From Patescibacteria group bacterium (GTDB lineage Bacteria > Patescibacteriota > WWE3 > UBA101185 > UBA10185): a DNA stretch of 64,000 nt. Numbering within the stretch: the first letter of the stretch is position 1; each line of letters begins with the position of its first letter. Of the stretch, positions 52,010 through 64,000 are shown piece by piece. The stretch spans positions 12,299 to 76,298 of the forward strand of contig BPJL01000006.1 of NCBI GenBank assembly GCA_026004595.1. The letters run 5' to 3'. The notes below the pieces were generated by a model that worked only from the letters and a program-made list of their open reading frames with translations, searched no databases and was not told the origin of the DNA. Both the position numbers and the translations under genes were made by a program.

Positions 52010-52213
52010 TTTTTCCAGTTAGCCCAGCAAACAAATAAAAATTGGCGCATAATTGTGTTGTTATTTTGGTATGTGCGCGATGAAACTATCTACTTTTGAA
52101 TCGTCATTCTAATATCTATCAATTGAGAGATAATAGAAACAGCATACGAACAGATTTGCAACGATTCGCGTTCATAGGTTAAATCGATATGGCTCGAAGA
52201 ACCGAACAACGAG

Positions 52214-56750: not shown

Positions 56751-56818
56751 GTATCCTTAGGAATTTTGGATCTTGATCATTTTGTTTGTCCGTCCCGGCC
56801 ACTTGCGCCGTGCGGATG

Positions 56819-56929
56819 TACTTTGAAAACACAACAAGAAAGAGGTGGTTGCCCTACTTAGGTTTGCACCTTCGAGACTTTCAGCATGCTGGAAGTTTTG
56901 CAGGTGCGTAGCCTAATAAGAGGCAGCCA
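56819..56929 (+). promoter_or_regulatory. Repeated leader element, copy 1 (box A, box B, hairpin, box C)
   Basis: Box A 56819-56842, box B GGTTGCCCTACTTAGGTTTGCACC, hairpin GCACCT (56866-56871) / AGGTGC (56902-56907), box C GGTGCGTAGCCTAATAAGAGGCAGC. Same architecture as copy 3. Confidence 0.55.
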
Positions 56930-57023: not shown

Positions 57024-57281
57024 ATGCAAACGTTAGTTAGCAACATAATTTTTTTGAGTGTGCTGGTATTCGCAGCAGCTTTGGTGATCTTTGGATTGCT
57101 GAAGTTCATCAAGGTACTTAAAGGAGAGCTCTCTGTAGGTGAGGCTCTGATGGCCATAGGCGGTGTGGTAATCGGTGCAGCAGTTGTAATATGGGCTGCG
57201 ACCGATTTCAACGGGAGCAGGATCATAATCGATACGGTTGGAAAGTGGATCATCCAGATTCTAACCGAGCCCCTAGGCTAG
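57024..57281 (+). CDS. Small 2-TM protein (VirB2/TrbC pilin-like topology)
   Basis: 86 aa from the ATG after RBS AACGGAGG: hydrophobic leader (IIFLSVLVFAAALVIFGLL), charged loop, second hydrophobic segment (ALMAIGGVVIGAAVVIWAA). Listed ORF begins at 56985. Confidence 0.5.
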   Translation: MQTLVSNIIFLSVLVFAAALVIFGLLKFIKVLKGELSVGEALMAIGGVVIGAAVVIWAATDFNGSRIIIDTVGKWIIQILTEPLG

Positions 57282-57288
57282 GTTAGCT

Positions 57289-58869
57289 ATGAAGACAGCT
57301 GCTGTTCCAACAATCCTGGTGGGCGCTCTTCTGCTTACTGGATGTGCGGAAAAACCGGATAATCTGGAGGTGTTTTTTGATTGGCGGCAAAAATTCTTTT
57401 TGCATGTTGATCAACAGACGGTAGAGCCTTGGGTAGGGCCGGTTTTAAGGCTAGCGGTAGCAGTAGCCTTAGTTCTTTGCTTACTGGTGTTGATACACAA
57501 CCTGAAAAGTGAAAGGCCTATCTGGGGTTATAATTTCATCACAGGTCTCTCAATTTTTGTAGCGATCGCTTTAGTGTATTTTTACATCCCCGCAGCTACA
57601 GCTTTTGGTGAGGCCATAATGCCCCCAGAATTAACGCTTGATAGGGTTTTTTCAGCTCTAAGGTTAGGGTTGGACGGAGGTTTGGCTGACTTGCTTGTAG
57701 GAGGCTGGGCTATAACCTTTACACTCGTTCTCCCGCTCTTTTCGGCTTTTTGGGAAATAATGATGTTGTTGGGTGCCGTTGTTGCTCTAATAGCAACAAC
57801 TTTAGCAAGAAGCATGAAAGGTATCGTTTACATTGTAACGCAGGTGTATGGATGGGGATCTTTCCTTGTTCTTTACAACACCTTAATATCGTTGATCGAC
57901 CGTTACTATCCTACATGGGATTATATGCCTGTAAAGATATTTGTAACGGCGTTCTATGTAATGGTATCTGTCACATTGCTTCTTTTTTGCTACATTGGAA
58001 TACCCTTCTTTGCAATCTCCCTCGTGCCGAGATCAGATGACGAATACAAATCATCTGGAAAGAAAAGGGAGGAAAGAATACGGGACTCCAAAGTGGATTG
58101 GGGGACTATTTTTGCTCCCATACCCATACCCAACGACTCGCCGGACGATGAGCCTGATCAAGATCGATACCATAGTAACGACAATTACGATGATGAGGAT
58201 CCTTCAGATGGTAGTATAAATCCCCAACTACCCCGGGGTCCGAGTGGTGGTGGATTGGGAGAGGTTATCGAAGCACATAAAGGAGATATCCCACCGACTA
58301 AAGTTTCTCGTTCGGAAACTTCGGAAACTAGTAATGGCGATGAACCTGATCCCAATAAAATACTTTTATCGAAAAGTTCGAGATTGGGTTCCAACATTGA
58401 ACACAAAGATTCCAGAGTTTCCGAAGAGGTTGTTGATTCTGTTGAGAACTTCCCTTCGAGTAAAGTTAAACAATTAAAAAGCTTGGAGAGTGGTTCCCGA
58501 TCTGCGGAAACAAGTCGTCCTAACCGGAACAATGGAGATTCCAACCGCCTGGAAATAGATGTCAAAAAAGACAAGCTAAAGAAAGATAAGGCCCACGTAG
58601 AATTTCTGGACAAAACCGGCAAAGTTTTGGAGGTCGTGGGTGTTGTTACCGCATCTCCTAAAGTCGTAATTTTCGGCAAGGGTGTTGAGTTAGCAGCCGA
58701 TGTGTTGGACCGTGCTACGGAAGAAGGTGCAGATACAAAGAAGGTTTTGGATCATTCTGCCAAAGAAGTAGCCAAACGGGTTTTGCGAAACAAATACCCA
58801 GACTTGGTAGAATTTGCAGTCGGCAAGGACGATCGGGACGAAAACAAGCTTAACATGGAAGGAGGGTAG
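57289..58869 (+). CDS. Polytopic membrane lipoprotein with long acidic/Ser-rich disordered C-terminal domain (VirB6-like architecture)
   Basis: Lipobox LLLTGC, about 6 TM helices, then ~270 aa low-complexity D/E/S/K/P-rich tail. Confidence 0.6.
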   Translation: MKTAAVPTILVGALLLTGCAEKPDNLEVFFDWRQKFFLHVDQQTVEPWVGPVLRLAVAVALVLCLLVLIHNLKSERPIWGYNFITGLSIFVAIALVYFYIPAATAFGEAIMPPELTLDRVFSALRLGLDGGLADLLVGGWAITFTLVLPLFSAFWEIMMLLGAVVALIATTLARSMKGIVYIVTQVYGWGSFLVLYNTLISLIDRYYPTWDYMPVKIFVTAFYVMVSVTLLLFCYIGIPFFAISLVPRSDDEYKSSGKKREERIRDSKVDWGTIFAPIPIPNDSPDDEPDQDRYHSNDNYDDEDPSDGSINPQLPRGPSGGGLGEVIEAHKGDIPPTKVSRSETSETSNGDEPDPNKILLSKSSRLGSNIEHKDSRVSEEVVDSVENFPSSKVKQLKSLESGSRSAETSRPNRNNGDSNRLEIDVKKDKLKKDKAHVEFLDKTGKVLEVVGVVTASPKVVIFGKGVELAADVLDRATEEGADTKKVLDHSAKEVAKRVLRNKYPDLVEFAVGKDDRDENKLNMEGG

Positions 58870-58870
58870 T

Positions 58871-59182
58871 ATGAGTCCCTTTTCCTTTCTTGGTGACAGT
58901 AAGATGAGATCGATCAGATATAAACTGTTCGATCATTCTTACACTATCCTGCCGGTTTGGGGTGTGATCGGAATCTTATTTGTTTCCGGTCTGTTTCTTT
59001 ATTTCGGCGGGCTCCGTTGGGTATGCCATGGTACTTCGGGAATAGTTTTTGTTTGGGTAGTTTTCACTCTGCTCAATAAAGTCCTGAAAGCTCGGGCATA
59101 CAAAAAAATCAGCGAAAAGAGCAGACGTGACCAATCCGAGGTAGTTGTTACCTACCTTTCGGATCCCCCGTACCGCTCCTAG
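58871..59182 (+). CDS. Small 2-TM membrane protein (VirB3-like size and topology), immediately upstream of the ATPase
   Basis: 103 aa from the ATG after RBS GGAGGG; helices ILPVWGVIGILFVSGLFLYFGGL and GIVFVWVVFTLL; basic C-terminus. Listed ORF begins at 58814. Confidence 0.5.
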   Translation: MSPFSFLGDSKMRSIRYKLFDHSYTILPVWGVIGILFVSGLFLYFGGLRWVCHGTSGIVFVWVVFTLLNKVLKARAYKKISEKSRRDQSEVVVTYLSDPPYRS

Positions 59183-59191
59183 AAACTTGAA

Positions 59192-59227
59192 AGGATAGGG
59201 TTTTTCCCCAACCCTATCCTTTTCTCT
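59192..59227 (+). terminator. Rho-independent terminator
   Basis: AGGATAGGGTT (59192-59202) pairs with AACCCTATCCT (59210-59220), followed by TTTCTCTC. Confidence 0.6.
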
Positions 59228-59349
59228 CTTTCTTGTTGTGGCTCTTTTTGAGTTTTCAATATATTTGATTATTCAAAAAGAGGGTACGAGAAACAAATAA
59301 TTTGCAAAAACATCATAGATGTTGGCACTTTGAAAACACAACAAGAAAG
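59225..59349 (+). promoter_or_regulatory. Repeated leader element, copy 2 (partial: 16-mer TCTCTTTCTTGTTGTG plus box A only)
   Basis: 16-mer at 59225-59240, identical to 62821-62836. Box A ACTTTGAAAACACAACAAGAAAG at 59327-59349, identical to copy 1. Confidence 0.5.
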
Positions 59350-59476
59350 CTAAGAAGAGATTATGTTTTTGTTGAGCAGGGCACCTAAAAGAGCCTGAAC
59401 ACTGTCGGGTTCTTTTGGGTGTCATGCTCAATCAGGGCTTGAACATAATAACTAAATCAATAAGAAAGGAGTTGAG

Positions 59477-61417
59477 ATGGATCTGAAAAAACTTTTATTT
59501 CCGGGAACAGATGCAAGATTGTTACCTGAATCCTCCGTGTTTTTAAACGCGGTAACCAGGGAAGAGACAATTAGTGCTCGAGAGCTCCTTGGTGTGACGA
59601 TCCACCCCGTAAAGGGAGGTGCTGCTGGTGTCAGAAGTACGAATGGAGGTGCTACGCGTGTAATCGCATATCACCAAAGCTCTAAATTCACCGATGGCAG
59701 CGGTTTGGATATACGGCAGGCTTACAAGTACACTTCTAACTTAACAATGTTGCTTAGGCTGGTTAAGCACTACCCCGCCTCTTTTGTAAGGCATGTTCAG
59801 AACGAAAAGGATGGTGAAAAAACAGCCCGTACCGAATTTCTCGATGATGTCATGGAGTGGGCACTTCCTCGGAAAGGAAAGATTAGCGGTCATGATCTGT
59901 TACTTTGGGGAGATTTAGGAGCAATCATTCCCGAAAATAGGGAAGAGACGGCATCGTTACATGGAAAGATTGTTTCTTATCTTCAAGCCGCGTCTGTACT
60001 TCGGAGTGTAATTTTAAGTACCCCAATGTCTCTGGAAGATGCAAAGTACGACTTGATCACAAAAAGCTATGATGCAGTTTGGTATGCTGCACCCAGAAAA
60101 GTGTTTTGGTACCCTGATTTTTATTCGCTACCGGACTCTAATTTGGCATACGCTTTTTGGAGTGGTGTGGTATCTCCTGAGAATATCCGTGAACTAATGG
60201 ATATGGGAGATATACTGCTCTACACGGAGGTGGTCGAGGGTTATCTTTACGCGACCGCTATACTTCGTGTGGTAGTGCCGATTAGAAACGGAACTGCTGA
60301 CTTTTCCTCTGAAACCTCCCAGCTGATGAAACTGGGCAAATGGGAGAGGCGGACAGGTGCGGATCTGAAAAAAGCATTTCAGGCCTTTGTTCCAGGAAGT
60401 GCACCACCTCCGGCATGGGACAGGCACTCAGTACACAAGCCGAACTACGTTCTGTCGGCCATTCAAAAGTCTCTAAAGAATGTTGGGGATAAGAACGGAG
60501 ATACTATGAGCGGTTTCATAGATGACGAGCCGTTCTTTCTCAACAACCAGCTTCGTCCCAGTCGTATCTACTTAGGGCCCAGCAAAGTGGGAAAGTCTAC
60601 CCTTGCTGCAGCACACGTTTTGCAAACCAATGGCTGTAGGGTCATATGGATGCCACTGACAGCGGGTCAATTTGAATCCGCACCCCATTGGGTAGAAAGA
60701 TTCGAAGGAACTGTAATAAACTTAAATCTTCCGGATGCATATACACTTCATAGACAAAACGATAAGCAAAACGGAACCAGGCCTACACGTGTCGATATGG
60801 TGGCCAAACAAGAGGAGTTGCACGTTGAGGACAAAGAAGCGGCCGAAAAGACAGTAGCAAAGCTGGAGGCTGAGTGGTATCAGCGGGGTAAGATTGTAGG
60901 GTTGCCGCTTACGTTTCGTGTTAAGTCAGGCGACACTGTACGATTGCTGAACTGGTACAACCATTTCTTAACTGCTATGAGGGAGGCCTGGAAAAGGTGG
61001 TACGAGCTTACCGGAGAACTTGCCACCATCGTTGCAGACAATTTCAGTGCGTTGAAATTATCGGACAACGACCCCTTGTTAGGTGAATTGCCTGCGGCAA
61101 TAGGGGAGAATCTAGGACTAAACCTAGCTTGGTTGGTATCTAACGGTCGAAATATTGGCCTTTCATGCTGGATTACGACTCATAGCAAGGAAGATCTTGA
61201 TCATATAAGCACCGGCCTATTCAACCAGTTTGGATTGTGCTTCAACCTCAAACACAATGATTTCACTTTTTGTGAGGTCAGCCAGCCGAAAGATCGAGAT
61301 GTTTTGGTACCAAAGCTCTATATAAAGCTTCCTTATCCCATCAAACGCGTTGTTGAAAGACGCGAGCCGAACCTGGATGAACTGCCGTGGACGCAAAAAG
61401 AAGTTTCCGCGGACTGA
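59477..61417 (+). CDS. FtsK/HerA/VirB4-like P-loop NTPase (divergent)
   Basis: Walker A GPSKVGKST (60575-60601), then CRVIWMPLTAGQFE (the hhhhD-x-x-GE-Y spacing seen in VirB4/HerA/FtsK ATPases). Walker B-like TIVADNF (DN not DE) and arginine-finger/TQ-like LSCWITTHS. No TM; RBS AAAGGAG. Confidence 0.6.
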   Translation: MDLKKLLFPGTDARLLPESSVFLNAVTREETISARELLGVTIHPVKGGAAGVRSTNGGATRVIAYHQSSKFTDGSGLDIRQAYKYTSNLTMLLRLVKHYPASFVRHVQNEKDGEKTARTEFLDDVMEWALPRKGKISGHDLLLWGDLGAIIPENREETASLHGKIVSYLQAASVLRSVILSTPMSLEDAKYDLITKSYDAVWYAAPRKVFWYPDFYSLPDSNLAYAFWSGVVSPENIRELMDMGDILLYTEVVEGYLYATAILRVVVPIRNGTADFSSETSQLMKLGKWERRTGADLKKAFQAFVPGSAPPPAWDRHSVHKPNYVLSAIQKSLKNVGDKNGDTMSGFIDDEPFFLNNQLRPSRIYLGPSKVGKSTLAAAHVLQTNGCRVIWMPLTAGQFESAPHWVERFEGTVINLNLPDAYTLHRQNDKQNGTRPTRVDMVAKQEELHVEDKEAAEKTVAKLEAEWYQRGKIVGLPLTFRVKSGDTVRLLNWYNHFLTAMREAWKRWYELTGELATIVADNFSALKLSDNDPLLGELPAAIGENLGLNLAWLVSNGRNIGLSCWITTHSKEDLDHISTGLFNQFGLCFNLKHNDFTFCEVSQPKDRDVLVPKLYIKLPYPIKRVVERREPNLDELPWTQKEVSAD

Positions 61418-62767
61418 TAGGGTGTGCCATTATCCCCGGCATCCCAATAATGCTTGTGATCTGCTTATTAAGTCTGATCCTAGCATTGGGATACATGCAC
61501 GATACAGACCCTAAGGCATACAACGAATACATCGGAGATGTCTTGGGTCTGTCCGGGGGGACTTGGTACACCCTCACACCGGACGATGAAGAGCTAATTC
61601 TGGAACTGGGATTTGATCCGGCGGTTGTAGCCAACGAAATTATGGCCAACCGCTGGATCAATGAAAATGGCGGAGAGATAGACCTTGGTATTCAGTTGGC
61701 CATTTTGGAAGGAGAGTCCAAGGCGGGAAAAAACATGGGAACATGCAACGGATTACTTTCCGCTGCGAAATTTTCAAGGCAGGAGGTAGAAGCAGCAGAG
61801 TGGTTGTTAAGACGCTGGAGCGCAGCCGGAATACGAGACTGGTCAGAAATTGCACGGAAAATGGTTACGCCTGACTACAGTGACTACACAGCACACTGTT
61901 CAGCCGGCGAGATAGGACCTAACGGTATTCTTCCGTCGACAGGTGTCACTATATGTAAGTATGGGCTTTCAGAGCACCCTAACCCATTGGTGCGTTCCTG
62001 CAATTTTTTTGATGAAAGGGTTGCGCCTTATGGAAAAAATTGGTGGTTAAAAGCTATCGGATACAAATCCACAGCTTCAAAATCCGATAATTTTGAAGCT
62101 CTGTACGGTTGGAACCATAGCGAGTTCTATAGGACACAGTTGCTCGAAAAAGCTGATTATTACAATAGTTTTTTTCGACAATTGGAAAGGGAATCCACAG
62201 GAAAACGAAATATATGTTTTCAAAGGAACATTGTTGCAAAGTATCGCAGTCAAATTCCTGAAATATGTCGGTCTTCTGTCGGCAGAGGTTTACGCTGCGG
62301 GTCCTGACGAGGGCGCTGGAGAAGCCTTGCCCATTGATGGTTTCGTCCACCCTTACCCCGGGGGTTTTCTTTGTGGATATGGTTTCGGAGTCCCTGTTGC
62401 GAATGGTATTCACTGGGGGGTAGACCTGTGTTTTGGTTCTCCTTGGAAATCCGCTCCCATCTACGCGATGCACTCCGGTAAAGTTGCCTTTGCAAGGTAT
62501 CTTTCCCCCAGCGAACCATTAGCGGGACAATGGTGGATTTCCGGAAATGTAATCGTGATTGAAGGAAAAGATGCTTCCGGAAATACAATCTGGACAGCTT
62601 ACGGCCACGGCCTTAACGGTAGTATGGAAGTTGAGGTCGGAGATGTTGTAGAGAAAGGCCAGAAGATCATGATGTCGGGGTCAACAGGCTTTTCTTCGGG
62701 TATTCACCTTCACCTGGCTATGAAAGTTAACGGTCGGTGGGTGAACCCCGCAACATACCTAAAATAA
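61387..62767 (+). pseudogene. Membrane-anchored bifunctional peptidoglycan hydrolase (SLT-like lytic transglycosylase plus M23 peptidase), interrupted by a +1 frameshift (pieces 61387-62307 and 62093-62767; probable site T7 run 62169-62175)
   Basis: Piece 1: TM (IIPGIPIMLVICLLSLILALGY), SLT-like ILEGESKAGKNMGTCNGLL (Glu-Ser catalytic pair). Piece 2 (+1 frame): M23 motifs HWGVD, YGHG, GIHLHLAM. Confidence 0.7.
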
Positions 62768-62948
62768 GGGCGATTGATGAAAGCAGATTTTTCTCTTTCC
62801 AGTCGCCCTATCTCTAAATTTCTCTTTCTTGTTGTGTAAGCGCAAGGATTTATATTTTATGAATTTTTACGCTTCGGTTTCAGATAGATTTTTTTTGGAA
62901 CCGCTATAAATACAAACTGCCCCCTGCTTTATTAATAAGGAGAAAGGC

Positions 62949-63048
62949 ACTTTGAGAACAAAACAAGATAGATAGGTTGCCTTTAGGTACGTACCCGCAA
63001 GGCTTTTACTAGAAGTTTTACGGGTGCGTAGCCTAATAATAGGCAGCT
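62949..63048 (+). promoter_or_regulatory. Repeated leader element, copy 3 (box A variant, box B, hairpin with compensatory changes, box C)
   Basis: Box A ACTTTGAGAACAAAACAAGATAG at 62949-62971, box B GGTTGCCTTTAGGTACGTACC, hairpin GTACCCG (62991-62997) / CGGGTGC (63021-63027), box C GGTGCGTAGCCTAATAATAGGCAGC. Confidence 0.55.
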
Positions 63049-63083: not shown

Positions 63084-64000
63084 GTGAATAAAGGATTTGC
63101 TGCGGTATTGCTGCTCTTTCTTGTACTATGTGGCACATTGGGTTTTGTAGTTTTTGGGTTGAATATTGTGGGAAGAGCGGACGTGCTCAAAAGCCTAGTA
63201 CTACCTGATGTAAAGAGTATCTTGACGGTATGTACCACAATGGTTGTAATAATAATTACATCCCAGGTTCTTTCATTTTGGGTTGCAAGGCTTGGGAAAA
63301 GTGTTGTCCACAGCTATTTTGACCGAAGGTGGCTCCCTAAAGAGAACAATAGTGAATCGTACACAACCTCATACGGAGAACGGCTCGAAAAAGTTGTATT
63401 ACCTAGTTATCTTGGAACAACGGTTTGGGATCTTGCCGCGCACACCTTTCCGTCAATGTTCGTTGTCAGCTTAATTGCAAGTATCGCGGTTTATGTGATT
63501 CTAACTGTAGCGGGTATTGGCGCTTTTCAGGTTTGGGTTATCTTGACCCTACTCATTCTAGCTTGTAATTTCATACTCGTCCCTGTCACGTATTGGATTA
63601 AGGAGTGGAAAAGGAAATATACAAAGTTCATCATATTTTCCTTCAATGTCATATACATTGGTGTAAAAACACCGATTCTTGCTTTGTTTTTCTGGAAGGG
63701 GAGCTTGCCGCAGAAGAGCAGAACTCCAATTACAGAAGTTTTGGAAATACAAATGTCGGCCGATCCCCAGCAATTCAAAGAGGAGTATCGTACCTCCTGG
63801 CTTAGGGACCAATGGACATCAATACTATCCAGGCGAGTAGGTTTGCGGACAATCTTTCTAAGAAGCCGCAGTAATAAAGCGGAGGATATCATTCTTTGGA
63901 TCGATAACGGTCCGGCGATAGATAAAATCCTTCGAAATCTTAGCGAAAAGGCTTTGAGGTCTCAATTGGGGGCTGGTCTAATTGCTCAAACTGTGGCCAA
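63084..64000 (+). CDS. Polytopic membrane protein (at least 6 TM), partial; VirB6/TcpH-like by context only
   Basis: Open frame (frame 0) from GTG 63084, 5 nt after RBS AAAGGAGG, to the window end with no stop (traced codon by codon). Hydrophobic helices (FAAVLLLFLVLCGTLGFVVFGL, ILTVCTTMVVIIITSQVLSFWVA, FVVSLIASIAVYVILTVAGIGAF, VWVILTLLILACNFILV). Missed by the ATG-based ORF track. Confidence 0.5.
   Translation, partial: MNKGFAAVLLLFLVLCGTLGFVVFGLNIVGRADVLKSLVLPDVKSILTVCTTMVVIIITSQVLSFWVARLGKSVVHSYFDRRWLPKENNSESYTTSYGERLEKVVLPSYLGTTVWDLAAHTFPSMFVVSLIASIAVYVILTVAGIGAFQVWVILTLLILACNFILVPVTYWIKEWKRKYTKFIIFSFNVIYIGVKTPILALFFWKGSLPQKSRTPITEVLEIQMSADPQQFKEEYRTSWLRDQWTSILSRRVGLRTIFLRSRSNKAEDIILWIDNGPAIDKILRNLSEKALRSQLGAGLIAQTVA

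What the first reader, a model, noticed from the sequence alone, without database searches (positions are those of the whole stretch)
59477..61417. VirB4/HerA-like NTPase with an atypical Walker B (DN in place of DE)
A canonical Walker A (GPSKVGKST) followed by the RVIWMPLTAGQFE spacing places the protein in the FtsK-HerA superfamily. However, the best Walker B candidate reads TIVADNF, not hhhhDE, and the downstream sensor reads WITTHS, not ATQ. Either this is a highly divergent but active motor, or a binding-competent but hydrolysis-impaired paralogue. There is no N-terminal TM, so it is not a VirD4-type coupling protein.
Basis: partly seen in the sequence, partly recalled or inferred. Interest (0 to 1): 0.55.

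Follow-up and report, generated by a model that had tools for sequence, protein, structure and literature searches.

The report
Divergent VirB4 ATPase lacking catalytic glutamate
This gene encodes the motor-type ATPase (VirB4) of a small type IV secretion-like gene cluster in an ultra-small WWE3 (CPR/Patescibacteria) bacterium. It is too divergent for standard family models to detect, and its whole family has replaced the glutamate that normally splits ATP.

Summary
ORF 59477-61417 (+, 646 aa) carries GPSKVGKST, TIVADNF and WITTHS, and has no conventional hhhhDE and no TM segment.

- Pfam, NCBIfam, PHROGs and PDB sequence searches find nothing.
- A 69-member family profile aligns to Gram-positive VirB4 (PrgJ/TcpF/TrsE) at 96% probability, E 1e-9.
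- The register places D521-N522 on the VirB4 DE, R558 on the RK arginine and H569 on the TQ glutamine.

The family has about 82 clusters at 50% identity; the identifiable members are WWE3. Nearly all lack DE: DD in 30 of 69, DN in 24, ND in 5, DE in 1. The Walker A lysine is invariant.

The gene sits in a chromosomal cassette conserved across WWE3 genomes. Its order is pilin-like, polytopic lipoprotein, small TM protein, ATPase, M23 hydrolase, 404-aa membrane protein, the same order as PrgH-I-J-K-L of pCF10.

Most likely it is a nucleotide-binding, slow or non-hydrolysing VirB4 platform. An active motor with substitute residues remains possible.

Bonus: a covarying leader RNA motif precedes all three transcription units.

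The parts
59477..61417 (+). VirB4-like ATPase gene, 646 aa. N-terminal VirB4-type domain about residues 34-330; C-terminal P-loop domain about residues 360-626.
60575..60601 (+). Walker A / P-loop GPSKVGKST (residues 367-375; K373)
   Evidence: Translation. K373 is invariant in 69/69 family members and G372 in 67/69.
60638..60676 (+). Strand after the P-loop helix plus acidic residue: RVIWMPLTAGQFE (residues 388-400). It aligns with the VirB4 'IxDPExEY' block. E400 is a candidate substitute catalytic or Mg-water ligand.
   Evidence: Translation. hhalign register. Position 400 is E in 31 and D in 21 of 69 members.
61025..61045 (+). Walker B TIVADNF (residues 517-523). D521 is at 61037-61039. 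N522, at 61040-61042, occupies the position of the catalytic Glu.
   Evidence: Translation. Beta-strand 516-521 in the model. The C-terminal hhalign places D521-N522 on PrgJ D676-E677. D521 and N522 are invariant in 8 orthologues. Family-wide, position 522 is D in 42, N in 25 and E in 1.
61145..61159 (+). GRNIG (residues 557-561), the counterpart of the VirB4 'RK' motif. R558 is at 61148-61150.
   Evidence: hhalign register. Position 558 is R in 44 and A in 13 of 69. Position 559 is K in the DD subfamily and N in the DN/ND subfamily.
61169..61186 (+). Sensor strand WITTHS (residues 565-570). H569, at 61181-61183, stands in place of the VirB4/FtsK/HerA 'TQ' glutamine.
   Evidence: Translation. 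Strand 562-568 in the model. Register. Position 569 is H in 57 and Q in 9 of 69.
57024..57281 (+). 85-aa two-TM hairpin protein in the VirB2/pilin-like position (inferred).
   Evidence: Hydropathy. Conserved in all WWE3 loci. Only a sub-threshold TrbC/VirB2 Pfam hit, E 0.72.
57289..58869 (+). 526-aa polytopic lipoprotein with a lipobox (LLLTGC), about 5-6 TM segments and a disordered acidic tail. It sits in the VirB6/PrgH position (inferred).
   Evidence: Hydropathy. Alignment A5 has an invariant lipobox Cys. No Pfam hit and no significant hhalign match to PrgH.
58871..59182 (+). 103-aa two-TM protein in the VirB3/PrgI position (inferred).
   Evidence: Hydropathy. Alignment A6. Only a short, weak hhalign match of D-x-S-x3-KPIWGV to the PrgI N-terminus, E 0.004, probability 8%.
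59183..59476 (+). Structured leader between the VirB3-like and VirB4-like genes. Its parts are a terminator-like hairpin at 59189-59223, a half-box at 59226-59240, a 25-nt box at 59325-59349, a covarying hairpin at 59381-59422, and an RBS at 59466-59472.
   Evidence: MFE -112.7 kcal/mol, z -9.2. Terminator scan. Covariation on 6 loci gives 84% of cells paired against 47-55% for slid controls.
61387..62767 (+). Membrane-anchored cell-wall hydrolase with a C-terminal M23 peptidase domain, in the VirB1/PrgK position. In this window it is split by one extra T at 62169.
   Evidence: Pfam Peptidase_M23, E 7e-16. The gene is intact at 422-465 aa in L001-L011. The indel was located. Its start overlaps the ATPase stop by 31 nt.
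63084..64000 (+). 404-aa protein with 5 TM segments; it runs off the window. It is the last conserved gene of the cassette and its role is unknown (the PrgL/VirB8 position by gene order only).
   Evidence: Translation. Hydropathy. Synteny. No Pfam hit.

Best explanation
The gene encodes the VirB4-type ATPase of a chromosomally fixed, minimal, monoderm-style type IV secretion-like machine in a candidate division WWE3 (CPR/Patescibacteria) bacterium.

Shown:
- It has the two-domain VirB4 architecture: a VirB4-specific N-domain plus an FtsK/HerA-type P-loop domain.
- It keeps a perfectly conserved P-loop lysine and Walker B aspartate.
- It sits in the gene order small pilin-like protein, polytopic lipoprotein, small TM protein, ATPase, peptidoglycan hydrolase, membrane protein.
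- The catalytic Walker B glutamate is Asn and the sensor glutamine is His in every close orthologue.
- The wider family almost never has DE.
- Sister lineages have also lost the RK arginine.

Inferred:
- The protein still binds Mg-ATP and oligomerises at the cytoplasmic face on the VirB3-like and VirB6-like proteins.
- It hydrolyses ATP slowly or not at all.
- It acts mainly as a nucleotide-dependent assembly platform or switch for the channel or pilus, rather than as a fast motor.
- By analogy with Saccharibacteria, the machine probably serves the host-dependent, epibiotic lifestyle rather than conjugation. No relaxase or coupling protein lies within 10 kb.
For: - Homology: hhalign of family A2 against 9 Firmicutes VirB4 gives 96.4% probability, E 1.2e-9, across the N-domain and Walker A.
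- Register of DN/DE, R/RK and H/TQ.
- Conservation: K373 in 69/69. Position 521 is D in 56. Position 522 is D in 42, N in 25, E in 1. Position 569 is H in 57, Q in 9. Position 558 is R in 44, A in 13.
- Coupled drift on a rough NJ tree: DD+RK, then DN+RN, then DN+AN, then ND+AN. This fits relaxed selection on catalysis with retained selection on binding.
- Synteny: the cassette is conserved in 8 or more independent WWE3 contigs, between hisS and rho. It has the same order as pCF10 PrgH-PrgI-PrgJ-PrgK-PrgL.
- Literature: the T4SS is widespread, chromosomal and relaxase-less in Patescibacteria and essential in S. epibionticum (PMC12102498; PMC12857230). RvhB4-II is a precedent for a VirB4 that lacks ATPase active sites (PMC4676284).
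Against: - No biochemistry exists. Asp or Asn at the Glu position does not prove loss of hydrolysis.
- The conserved acidic residue at 400, H569, or a trans residue could substitute for the missing glutamate.
- The link between motif and activity is loose in this family. ConE, which has a DE, was reported inactive in vitro, whereas PrgJ is active (PMC12857230).
- The AF2 model is of moderate confidence (pLDDT 73.7, 8-sequence alignment). Its coordinates could not be inspected, so active-site geometry is untested.
- The C-terminal profile alignment on its own is weak (E 2.7e-4, probability 42%).
- None of the neighbouring genes is recognised by any T4SS family model. Their roles rest on order and topology only.
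- Whether the genome has a second, canonical VirB4 or a VirD4 elsewhere is unknown.
Confidence: 0.6

Rival explanations
1. It is a fully active VirB4 motor that uses a non-canonical catalytic arrangement. The water-activating base would be supplied by the conserved acidic residue at position 400 (the VirB4 'DPExEY' region, on the strand next to Walker B, as in RecA/F1-type ATPases) and/or by H569, with N522 only positioning the water.
For: - Strong purifying selection on the whole nucleotide site: K373 in 69/69, invariant D521, N522, N559 and H569 among orthologues.
- Position 400 is acidic in 52/69 members.
- His replaces Gln in 57/69, a consistent substitution rather than random decay.
- No second ATPase is present in the cassette; the downstream ATP-synt_ab-like gene is Rho. 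The machine therefore has no other obvious local energy source.
Against: - In the FtsK-HerA-VirB4 clade the Glu after the Walker B Asp is the established catalytic base (background knowledge).
- E400 is not invariant even among the 8 orthologues; P0008 lacks it in register.
- The RK arginine is lost in 13/69 members, all in the DN/ND branch. That is hard to reconcile with a conserved high-turnover site.
Confidence: 0.3
2. It is a HerA/FtsK-type DNA translocase or a defence-system ATPase unrelated to type IV secretion.
Against: - HerA hits align only about 220-250 residues, the P-loop domain. TrwK aligns 396 residues and tops Foldseek.
- The profile-profile match to VirB4 runs through the N-domain.
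- No NurA, Sir2 or DUF4297 partner is present. The neighbours are small TM proteins, a polytopic lipoprotein and a wall hydrolase.
- The locus is chromosomal, syntenic and housekeeping-flanked.
Confidence: 0.05
3. It is a RecA/DnaB/KaiC-class ATPase, in which hhhhD followed by a non-acidic residue and a His sensor are normal and the catalytic Glu follows the P-loop strand. This was my own first reading of GPSKVGKST...FE / VVADNFSAL / THS.
Against: - The GR[KN]xG-strand-[HQ] block matches the VirB4 RK...TQ block.
- The N-domain is homologous to VirB4.
- The ancestral state in the family is DD+RK, not D+S/N.
Confidence: 0.03
4. It is a decaying pseudogene or relic of a lost conjugative element.
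For: Loss of canonical catalytic residues. The adjacent hydrolase gene is frameshifted in this window.
Against: - The ORF is intact, full-length and conserved from 33 to 100% identity, with about 100 invariant columns.
- The position between hisS and rho is fixed across divergent WWE3 genomes.
- There is only 1 amino-acid change among 5 nucleotide differences from the 99.3%-identical strain.
- The hydrolase frameshift is a single T in a T-run, absent from three other assemblies of the same lineage.
Confidence: 0.02

Closest known systems
VirB4 ATPases of monoderm conjugation systems (MPF-FATA: PrgJ of pCF10, TcpF of pCW3, TrsE of pGO1-type plasmids) and TrwK/VirB4 of R388
   Same: - Two-domain architecture, with the FtsK/HerA-type P-loop domain preceded by the VirB4 N-domain.
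- Walker A.
- Order of motifs: strand-2 acidic block, Walker B, [RK]-type helix, sensor strand.
- Soluble protein encoded just after a VirB3-like gene and just before a wall hydrolase.
   Different: - No detectable sequence-to-profile similarity. Pfam and NCBIfam give nothing at E<=1, and a 9-sequence VirB4 HMM gives nothing at E<=10.
- DE is DN, TQ is TH and RK is RN.
- The D of 'IxDPE' is Pro.
- It is shorter: 646 aa against about 800 for PrgJ and TcpF.
The Patescibacteria T4SS (S. epibionticum and the 'Patescibacteria clade' of VirB4; PMC12102498, PMC12857230)
   Same: - Chromosomal, relaxase-less, monoderm-type cassette with VirB2-like pilin, VirB3-, VirB6- and VirB4-like genes and M23 or lysozyme hydrolases downstream of virB4.
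- CPR host with a genome of about 0.8 Mb.
   Different: - Those VirB4s are found with standard VirB4 HMMs, whereas this one is not.
- An HMM of the WWE3 family reaches only 82 clusters among 1.84 billion representatives. It therefore does not reach that large clade.
- No TrsD-like gene or pilin array was seen here.
- WWE3 genomes seem not to have been in that survey.
RvhB4-II of Rickettsiales
   Same: A conserved, full-length VirB4 homologue that lacks the ATPase active-site residues needed for VirB4 function, proposed to have a structural or regulatory role (PMC4676284).
   Different: RvhB4-II coexists with a canonical RvhB4-I in a diderm P-type T4SS. Here no canonical copy is known, Walker A is intact, and the change is shared by a whole family.
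HerA / FtsK / EccC ATPase domains
   Different: No HAS-barrel or FtsK gamma domain, no nuclease partner. The N-domain and the gene context are VirB4-like.

Membership tests
VirB4 (T4SS ATPase) | C-terminal FtsK/HerA-type P-loop NTPase fold | tested here: met
VirB4 (T4SS ATPase) | VirB4-specific N-terminal domain preceding the P-loop domain | tested here: met
VirB4 (T4SS ATPase) | Walker A GxxGxGK[ST] | tested here: met
   GPSKVGKST; K373 in 69/69.
VirB4 (T4SS ATPase) | Walker B hhhhDE with catalytic Glu | tested here: not met
   TIVADN; N522 is invariant in orthologues; the family has DE in 1 of 69. D676 and E677 are invariant in the 9 reference VirB4.
VirB4 (T4SS ATPase) | RK...TQ block (arginine and sensor glutamine) | tested here: not met
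   It reads RN...TH here. The R is retained in this protein but is lost (Ala) in 13/69 relatives. Q is present in only 9/69.
VirB4 (T4SS ATPase) | Recognition by curated family models (Pfam CagE_TrbE_VirB / AAA_10 / DUF87; NCBIfam VirB4 models) | tested here: not met
   0 Pfam families at E<=1 and no relevant NCBIfam hit. Of the 69 relatives, none hits a VirB4 model; one reaches FtsK_SpoIIIE (E 0.0029) and one the VirD4/TraG model T4SS-DNA_transf (E 0.003) below threshold, and the rest are generic P-loop hits. CONJScan profiles were not available.
VirB4 (T4SS ATPase) | Encoded with VirB3-, VirB6- and VirB1-type partners | tested here: inconclusive
   Order and topology match PrgH-I-J-K, and the hydrolase has an M23 domain. 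The membrane proteins match no T4SS model.
VirB4 (T4SS ATPase) | ATP hydrolysis and a requirement for secretion or pilus biogenesis | not testable with these tools
   Needs a recombinant-protein assay or genetics.
VirD4 / T4CP | N-terminal TM anchor plus all-alpha domain | tested here: not met
   No TM segment. TrwB, TcpA and DotL score below VirB4 and HerA.
HerA | N-terminal HAS-barrel and a NurA, Sir2 or other effector partner | tested here: not met
   HerA aligns only about 250 residues. There is no partner gene in the locus.
RecA/DnaB/KaiC class | Best structural match to a RecA-type core, with the catalytic Glu after strand 2 | tested here: not met

The most novel reading that the evidence does not exclude
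WWE3 bacteria, and the relatives that carry this family, run their only type IV secretion-like machine with a VirB4 that binds but does not hydrolyse ATP. VirB4 is otherwise regarded as the universal T4SS energiser. Its indispensable role would then be structural or switch-like, and the machine would be energised in some other way.

In addition, the three transcription units of the cassette share a previously undescribed structured leader RNA (a 25-nt box plus a covarying hairpin) that co-regulates them.
Probability: 0.2. Interest if true: 0.75.

Novelty: new variant of a known kind. Interest (0 to 1): 0.55.

Why it matters
VirB4 is the hallmark used to find and classify every T4SS, and its Walker B DE is treated as essential.

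- A whole VirB4-like family escapes the standard models. T4SS surveys of CPR and other dark-matter genomes could therefore under-count systems. WWE3 appears not to have been covered by the published Patescibacteria survey.
- The family also lacks the catalytic glutamate. It offers a natural experiment on which VirB4 functions need hydrolysis and which need only nucleotide binding.
- In Saccharibacteria the T4SS is essential for epibiotic growth. The WWE3 cassette is thus a candidate key determinant of host dependence in another CPR lineage.
- The conserved leader RNA gives a handle on how the cassette is regulated.

Tried and rejected

2. I considered the conserved downstream 'ATP-synt_ab' ATPase as the cassette's real motor. 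It is Rho, E 5e-18 to Rho structures.

3. Sequence searches for the ATPase returned nothing useful: Pfam, NCBIfam, PHROGs, and PDB by phmmer and by profile. Only generic P-loop hits appeared for 69 relatives.

4. The search for homologous proteins with profiles A1 and A2 did not extend beyond the 8 orthologues. The exhaustive representative search did, with 82 hits.

5. Pfam and hhalign tests of the pilin-like, VirB3-like and VirB6-like neighbours against TrbC, PrgI and PrgH gave no significant match.

6. The afdb50 fold library was unavailable.

7. I could not determine whether WWE3 has a canonical VirB4 elsewhere.

Neighbour proteins could only be submitted as single sequences.

9. Rfam has no family for the leader RNA, at either the gathering or the E-value threshold.

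10. A sigma-70 reading of the 25-nt box was considered. The box contains TTGAAA or TTGACA, but no consistent -10 follows it, and the region between and after the boxes covaries as RNA. This is unresolved.
Full report
**Observation**

The ORF 59477-61417 (+) is real. It has an ATG start, encodes 646 aa, and has an AAAGGAG Shine-Dalgarno 5 nt upstream.

The quoted motifs are at these positions:
- GPSKVGKST, residues 367-375, nt 60575-60601.
- RVIWMPLTAGQFE, residues 388-400.
- TIVADNF, residues 517-523, nt 61025-61045.
- WITTHS, residues 565-570, nt 61169-61186.

There is no TM-like segment. The only DE dipeptides, at 350-351 and 634-635, lie before the P-loop or in the disordered tail. They are not conserved. 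There is no hidden conventional Walker B.

**Organism and rarity**

The window is 99.3% identical to a 768-kb JGI metagenome contig. The closest genome-collection loci are all candidate division WWE3, including the complete 878-kb RAAC2_WWE3_1 chromosome.

The rest of the window is core chromosome: UvrA/B, a class A PBP, RNR, IleRS, GatA/B, PolA, ClpB, L19 and HisRS.

The protein matches nothing in Pfam, NCBIfam or PHROGs, and nothing in PDB by sequence or by an 8-sequence profile. A word-indexed search of 5.8 billion proteins finds 8 orthologues at 33-100% identity. An exhaustive HMM search of 1.84 billion cluster representatives finds only 82. The one distant member that carries a source name (P0023) is also WWE3.

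**What it is**

An AlphaFold2 model was built on the 8-sequence alignment, with mean pLDDT 73.7.

- Foldseek ranks four R388 TrwK/VirB4 chains first, best E 9.6e-11, full-length alignments.

I built a reference alignment of nine annotated Gram-positive plasmid VirB4 proteins: PrgJ, TcpF, TrsE-like and DUF87-type.

- The 69-sequence family alignment matches it at 96.4% probability, E 1.2e-9. The match runs through the VirB4 N-domain and the Walker A.
- A plain HMM of the same nine proteins does not detect the WWE3 proteins at E<=10. This explains why annotation pipelines miss them.
- A C-terminal-only profile comparison is weaker (E 2.7e-4, probability 42%). It gives the motif register: D521-N522 on PrgJ D676-E677, which are invariant in the reference set. 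It also puts R558 on the RK arginine and H569 on the TQ glutamine.

My initial idea was that the motifs are those of a RecA/DnaB/KaiC-type ATPase, in which D followed by a non-acidic residue is normal. These results reject it.

**Family-wide pattern**

Across the 69 aligned relatives:
- The P-loop lysine is invariant.
- The Walker B pair is DD in 30, DN in 24, ND in 5, ED in 4 and DE in 1.
- The sensor residue is H in 57 and Q in 9.
- The RK arginine is R in 44 and A in 13.

The states are coupled. DD goes with RK. DN and ND go with xN, in which the arginine is often lost.

On a rough NJ tree the order looks like DD+RK, then DN+RN (the window's clade), then DN+AN, then ND+AN. One carboxylate and the lysine are always kept. 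The residues associated with catalysis drift.

This pattern is expected if Mg-nucleotide binding is selected but fast hydrolysis is not. It is an inference. A conserved acidic residue at position 400 (52/69), in the block aligned with the VirB4 'DPExEY', and H569 could provide an alternative catalytic route.

**Context**

In every contig that carries an orthologue the same cassette recurs:
- An 85-95-aa two-TM protein.
- A 480-540-aa polytopic lipoprotein with an invariant lipobox cysteine and a disordered tail.
- A roughly 100-aa two-TM protein.
- The ATPase.
- A membrane-anchored hydrolase of 400-465 aa with a C-terminal M23 domain, whose start overlaps the ATPase stop.
- A 380-425-aa protein with five TM segments.

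The order is the same as PrgH(VirB6)-PrgI(VirB3)-PrgJ(VirB4)-PrgK(hydrolase)-PrgL in pCF10. The cassette lies between hisS and a divergent rho. I first suspected that the rho gene was a partner ATPase; it matches Rho structures at E 5e-18. No relaxase or coupling protein lies within 10 kb.

None of the membrane partners matches a T4SS model. Their VirB2/3/6 roles are inferred from order and topology only.

**Comparison with the literature**

A 2025 survey found HMM-detectable VirB4 in 2,417 of 3,035 Patescibacteria genomes. These form a clade nested in MPF-FATA, usually chromosomal and without a relaxase, often with VirB2-like pilins and M23 or lysozyme genes nearby. The system is essential in S. 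epibionticum (PMC12102498; PMC12857230).

WWE3 is classified outside the NCBI 'Patescibacteria group'. The string WWE3 does not occur in the held part of that paper's genome table. The table is truncated, so this is only suggestive. No held paper links WWE3 to VirB4 or describes a WWE3 T4SS; the only paper with both 'WWE3' and 'type IV secretion' is a review of ultra-small microbes that I did not open.

The review states that Gram-positive VirB4 homologues retain Walker A and B. It also notes that measured ATPase activity varies: PrgJ is active and ConE is inactive. RvhB4-II of Rickettsiales is a precedent for a conserved VirB4 without ATPase active sites, but it sits beside a canonical paralogue (PMC4676284).

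**Verdict**

The refinement has three parts. The protein is a VirB4 homologue rather than a HerA homologue. It belongs to a T4SS-like cassette of a CPR bacterium. The missing glutamate is a family trait.

I rate it a new variant of a known kind. Whether it is a pseudo-ATPase platform (my preferred reading, about 0.6) or an unconventional active motor (about 0.3) needs biochemistry.

**Side finding**

The 294-nt spacer upstream of the ATPase gene folds far better than shuffles, with MFE -112.7 kcal/mol and z -9.2.

It contains:
- A terminator-like hairpin.
- A 25-nt box, GCACTTTGAAAACACAACAAGAAAG.
- An upstream reverse-complement half-box.
- A long hairpin.

The box-plus-hairpin module occurs three times in the 64-kb window. 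All three copies are inside the cassette: before the pilin-like gene, before the ATPase gene, and before the 404-aa gene. It occurs at the same positions in other WWE3 genomes.

Across 12 modules the 18-bp hairpin is 92.6% paired, against 40-53% for slid controls. Eleven pairs show compensatory changes, and the covariation score is 0.68 against 0.13-0.25. The whole virB4 leader is supported on six loci. Rfam has no match.

This looks like a cassette-specific cis-regulatory leader, or a promoter plus structured 5'UTR. Its mode of action is open.

Noticed in passing
window 56818-56907, 59183-59476 and 62822-63027 (+ strand). Also L004 2433/5176/8922, L005 7362/9840 and L025 1041/3502.: A conserved RNA module precedes each of the three transcription units of the cassette, and occurs nowhere else in the 64-kb window. 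It consists of a 25-nt box GCACTTTGAAAACACAACAAGAAAG, a covarying 18-bp hairpin GCACC...GGUGC, and GCCUAAUAAGAGGC. Two of the three sites also carry the reverse-complement half-box CTCTTTCTTGTTGTG about 100 nt upstream. There is no Rfam family. Covariation: 92.6% of cells paired against 40-53% for slid controls.
   Followed up: partly
window 62169 (within 61387-62767): One extra T in a T-run (T7 against T6) splits the M23 hydrolase gene into two ORFs (61387-62307 and 62093-62767). The gene is intact in three other assemblies of the same lineage and in all other WWE3 loci. This could be a sequencing error or phase variation.
   Followed up: partly
window 55902: One extra A in an A-run, relative to L001, falls inside the small RDD-domain gene that the public contig calls at L001 6255-6476. 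Other single-base homopolymer indels between the two strains lie at 52107, 52168, 53556, 53604, 56069, 56260 and 62889.
   Followed up: no
L001 15049-16413 (outside the window, about 1 kb beyond its end): A conserved 440-454-aa gene that Pfam labels ATP-synt_ab is a divergent Rho termination factor (E 5e-18 to Rho structures). It always follows the cassette.
   Followed up: yes
window 57289-58869: The polytopic VirB6-position protein starts with a lipoprotein signal (LLLTGC, Cys invariant in 6 genomes). It ends in a roughly 280-aa acidic, Pro/Ser-rich, poorly conserved tail followed by a conserved C-terminal segment of about 60 aa.
   Followed up: no
L011 10028-11795: In the WWE3 MAG RBG_19FT_COMBO_34_6 the ATPase orthologue is broken into three frames. 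N runs occur elsewhere in this locus, so assembly problems may be the cause rather than real decay.
   Followed up: no
family alignment A2, residues 522 and 559 of the window protein: The second Walker B residue and the residue after the RK arginine co-vary: D with K in the DD subfamily, N with N in the DN subfamily. This might reflect a direct contact, a salt bridge replaced by an amide pair, or simply shared ancestry.
   Followed up: partly
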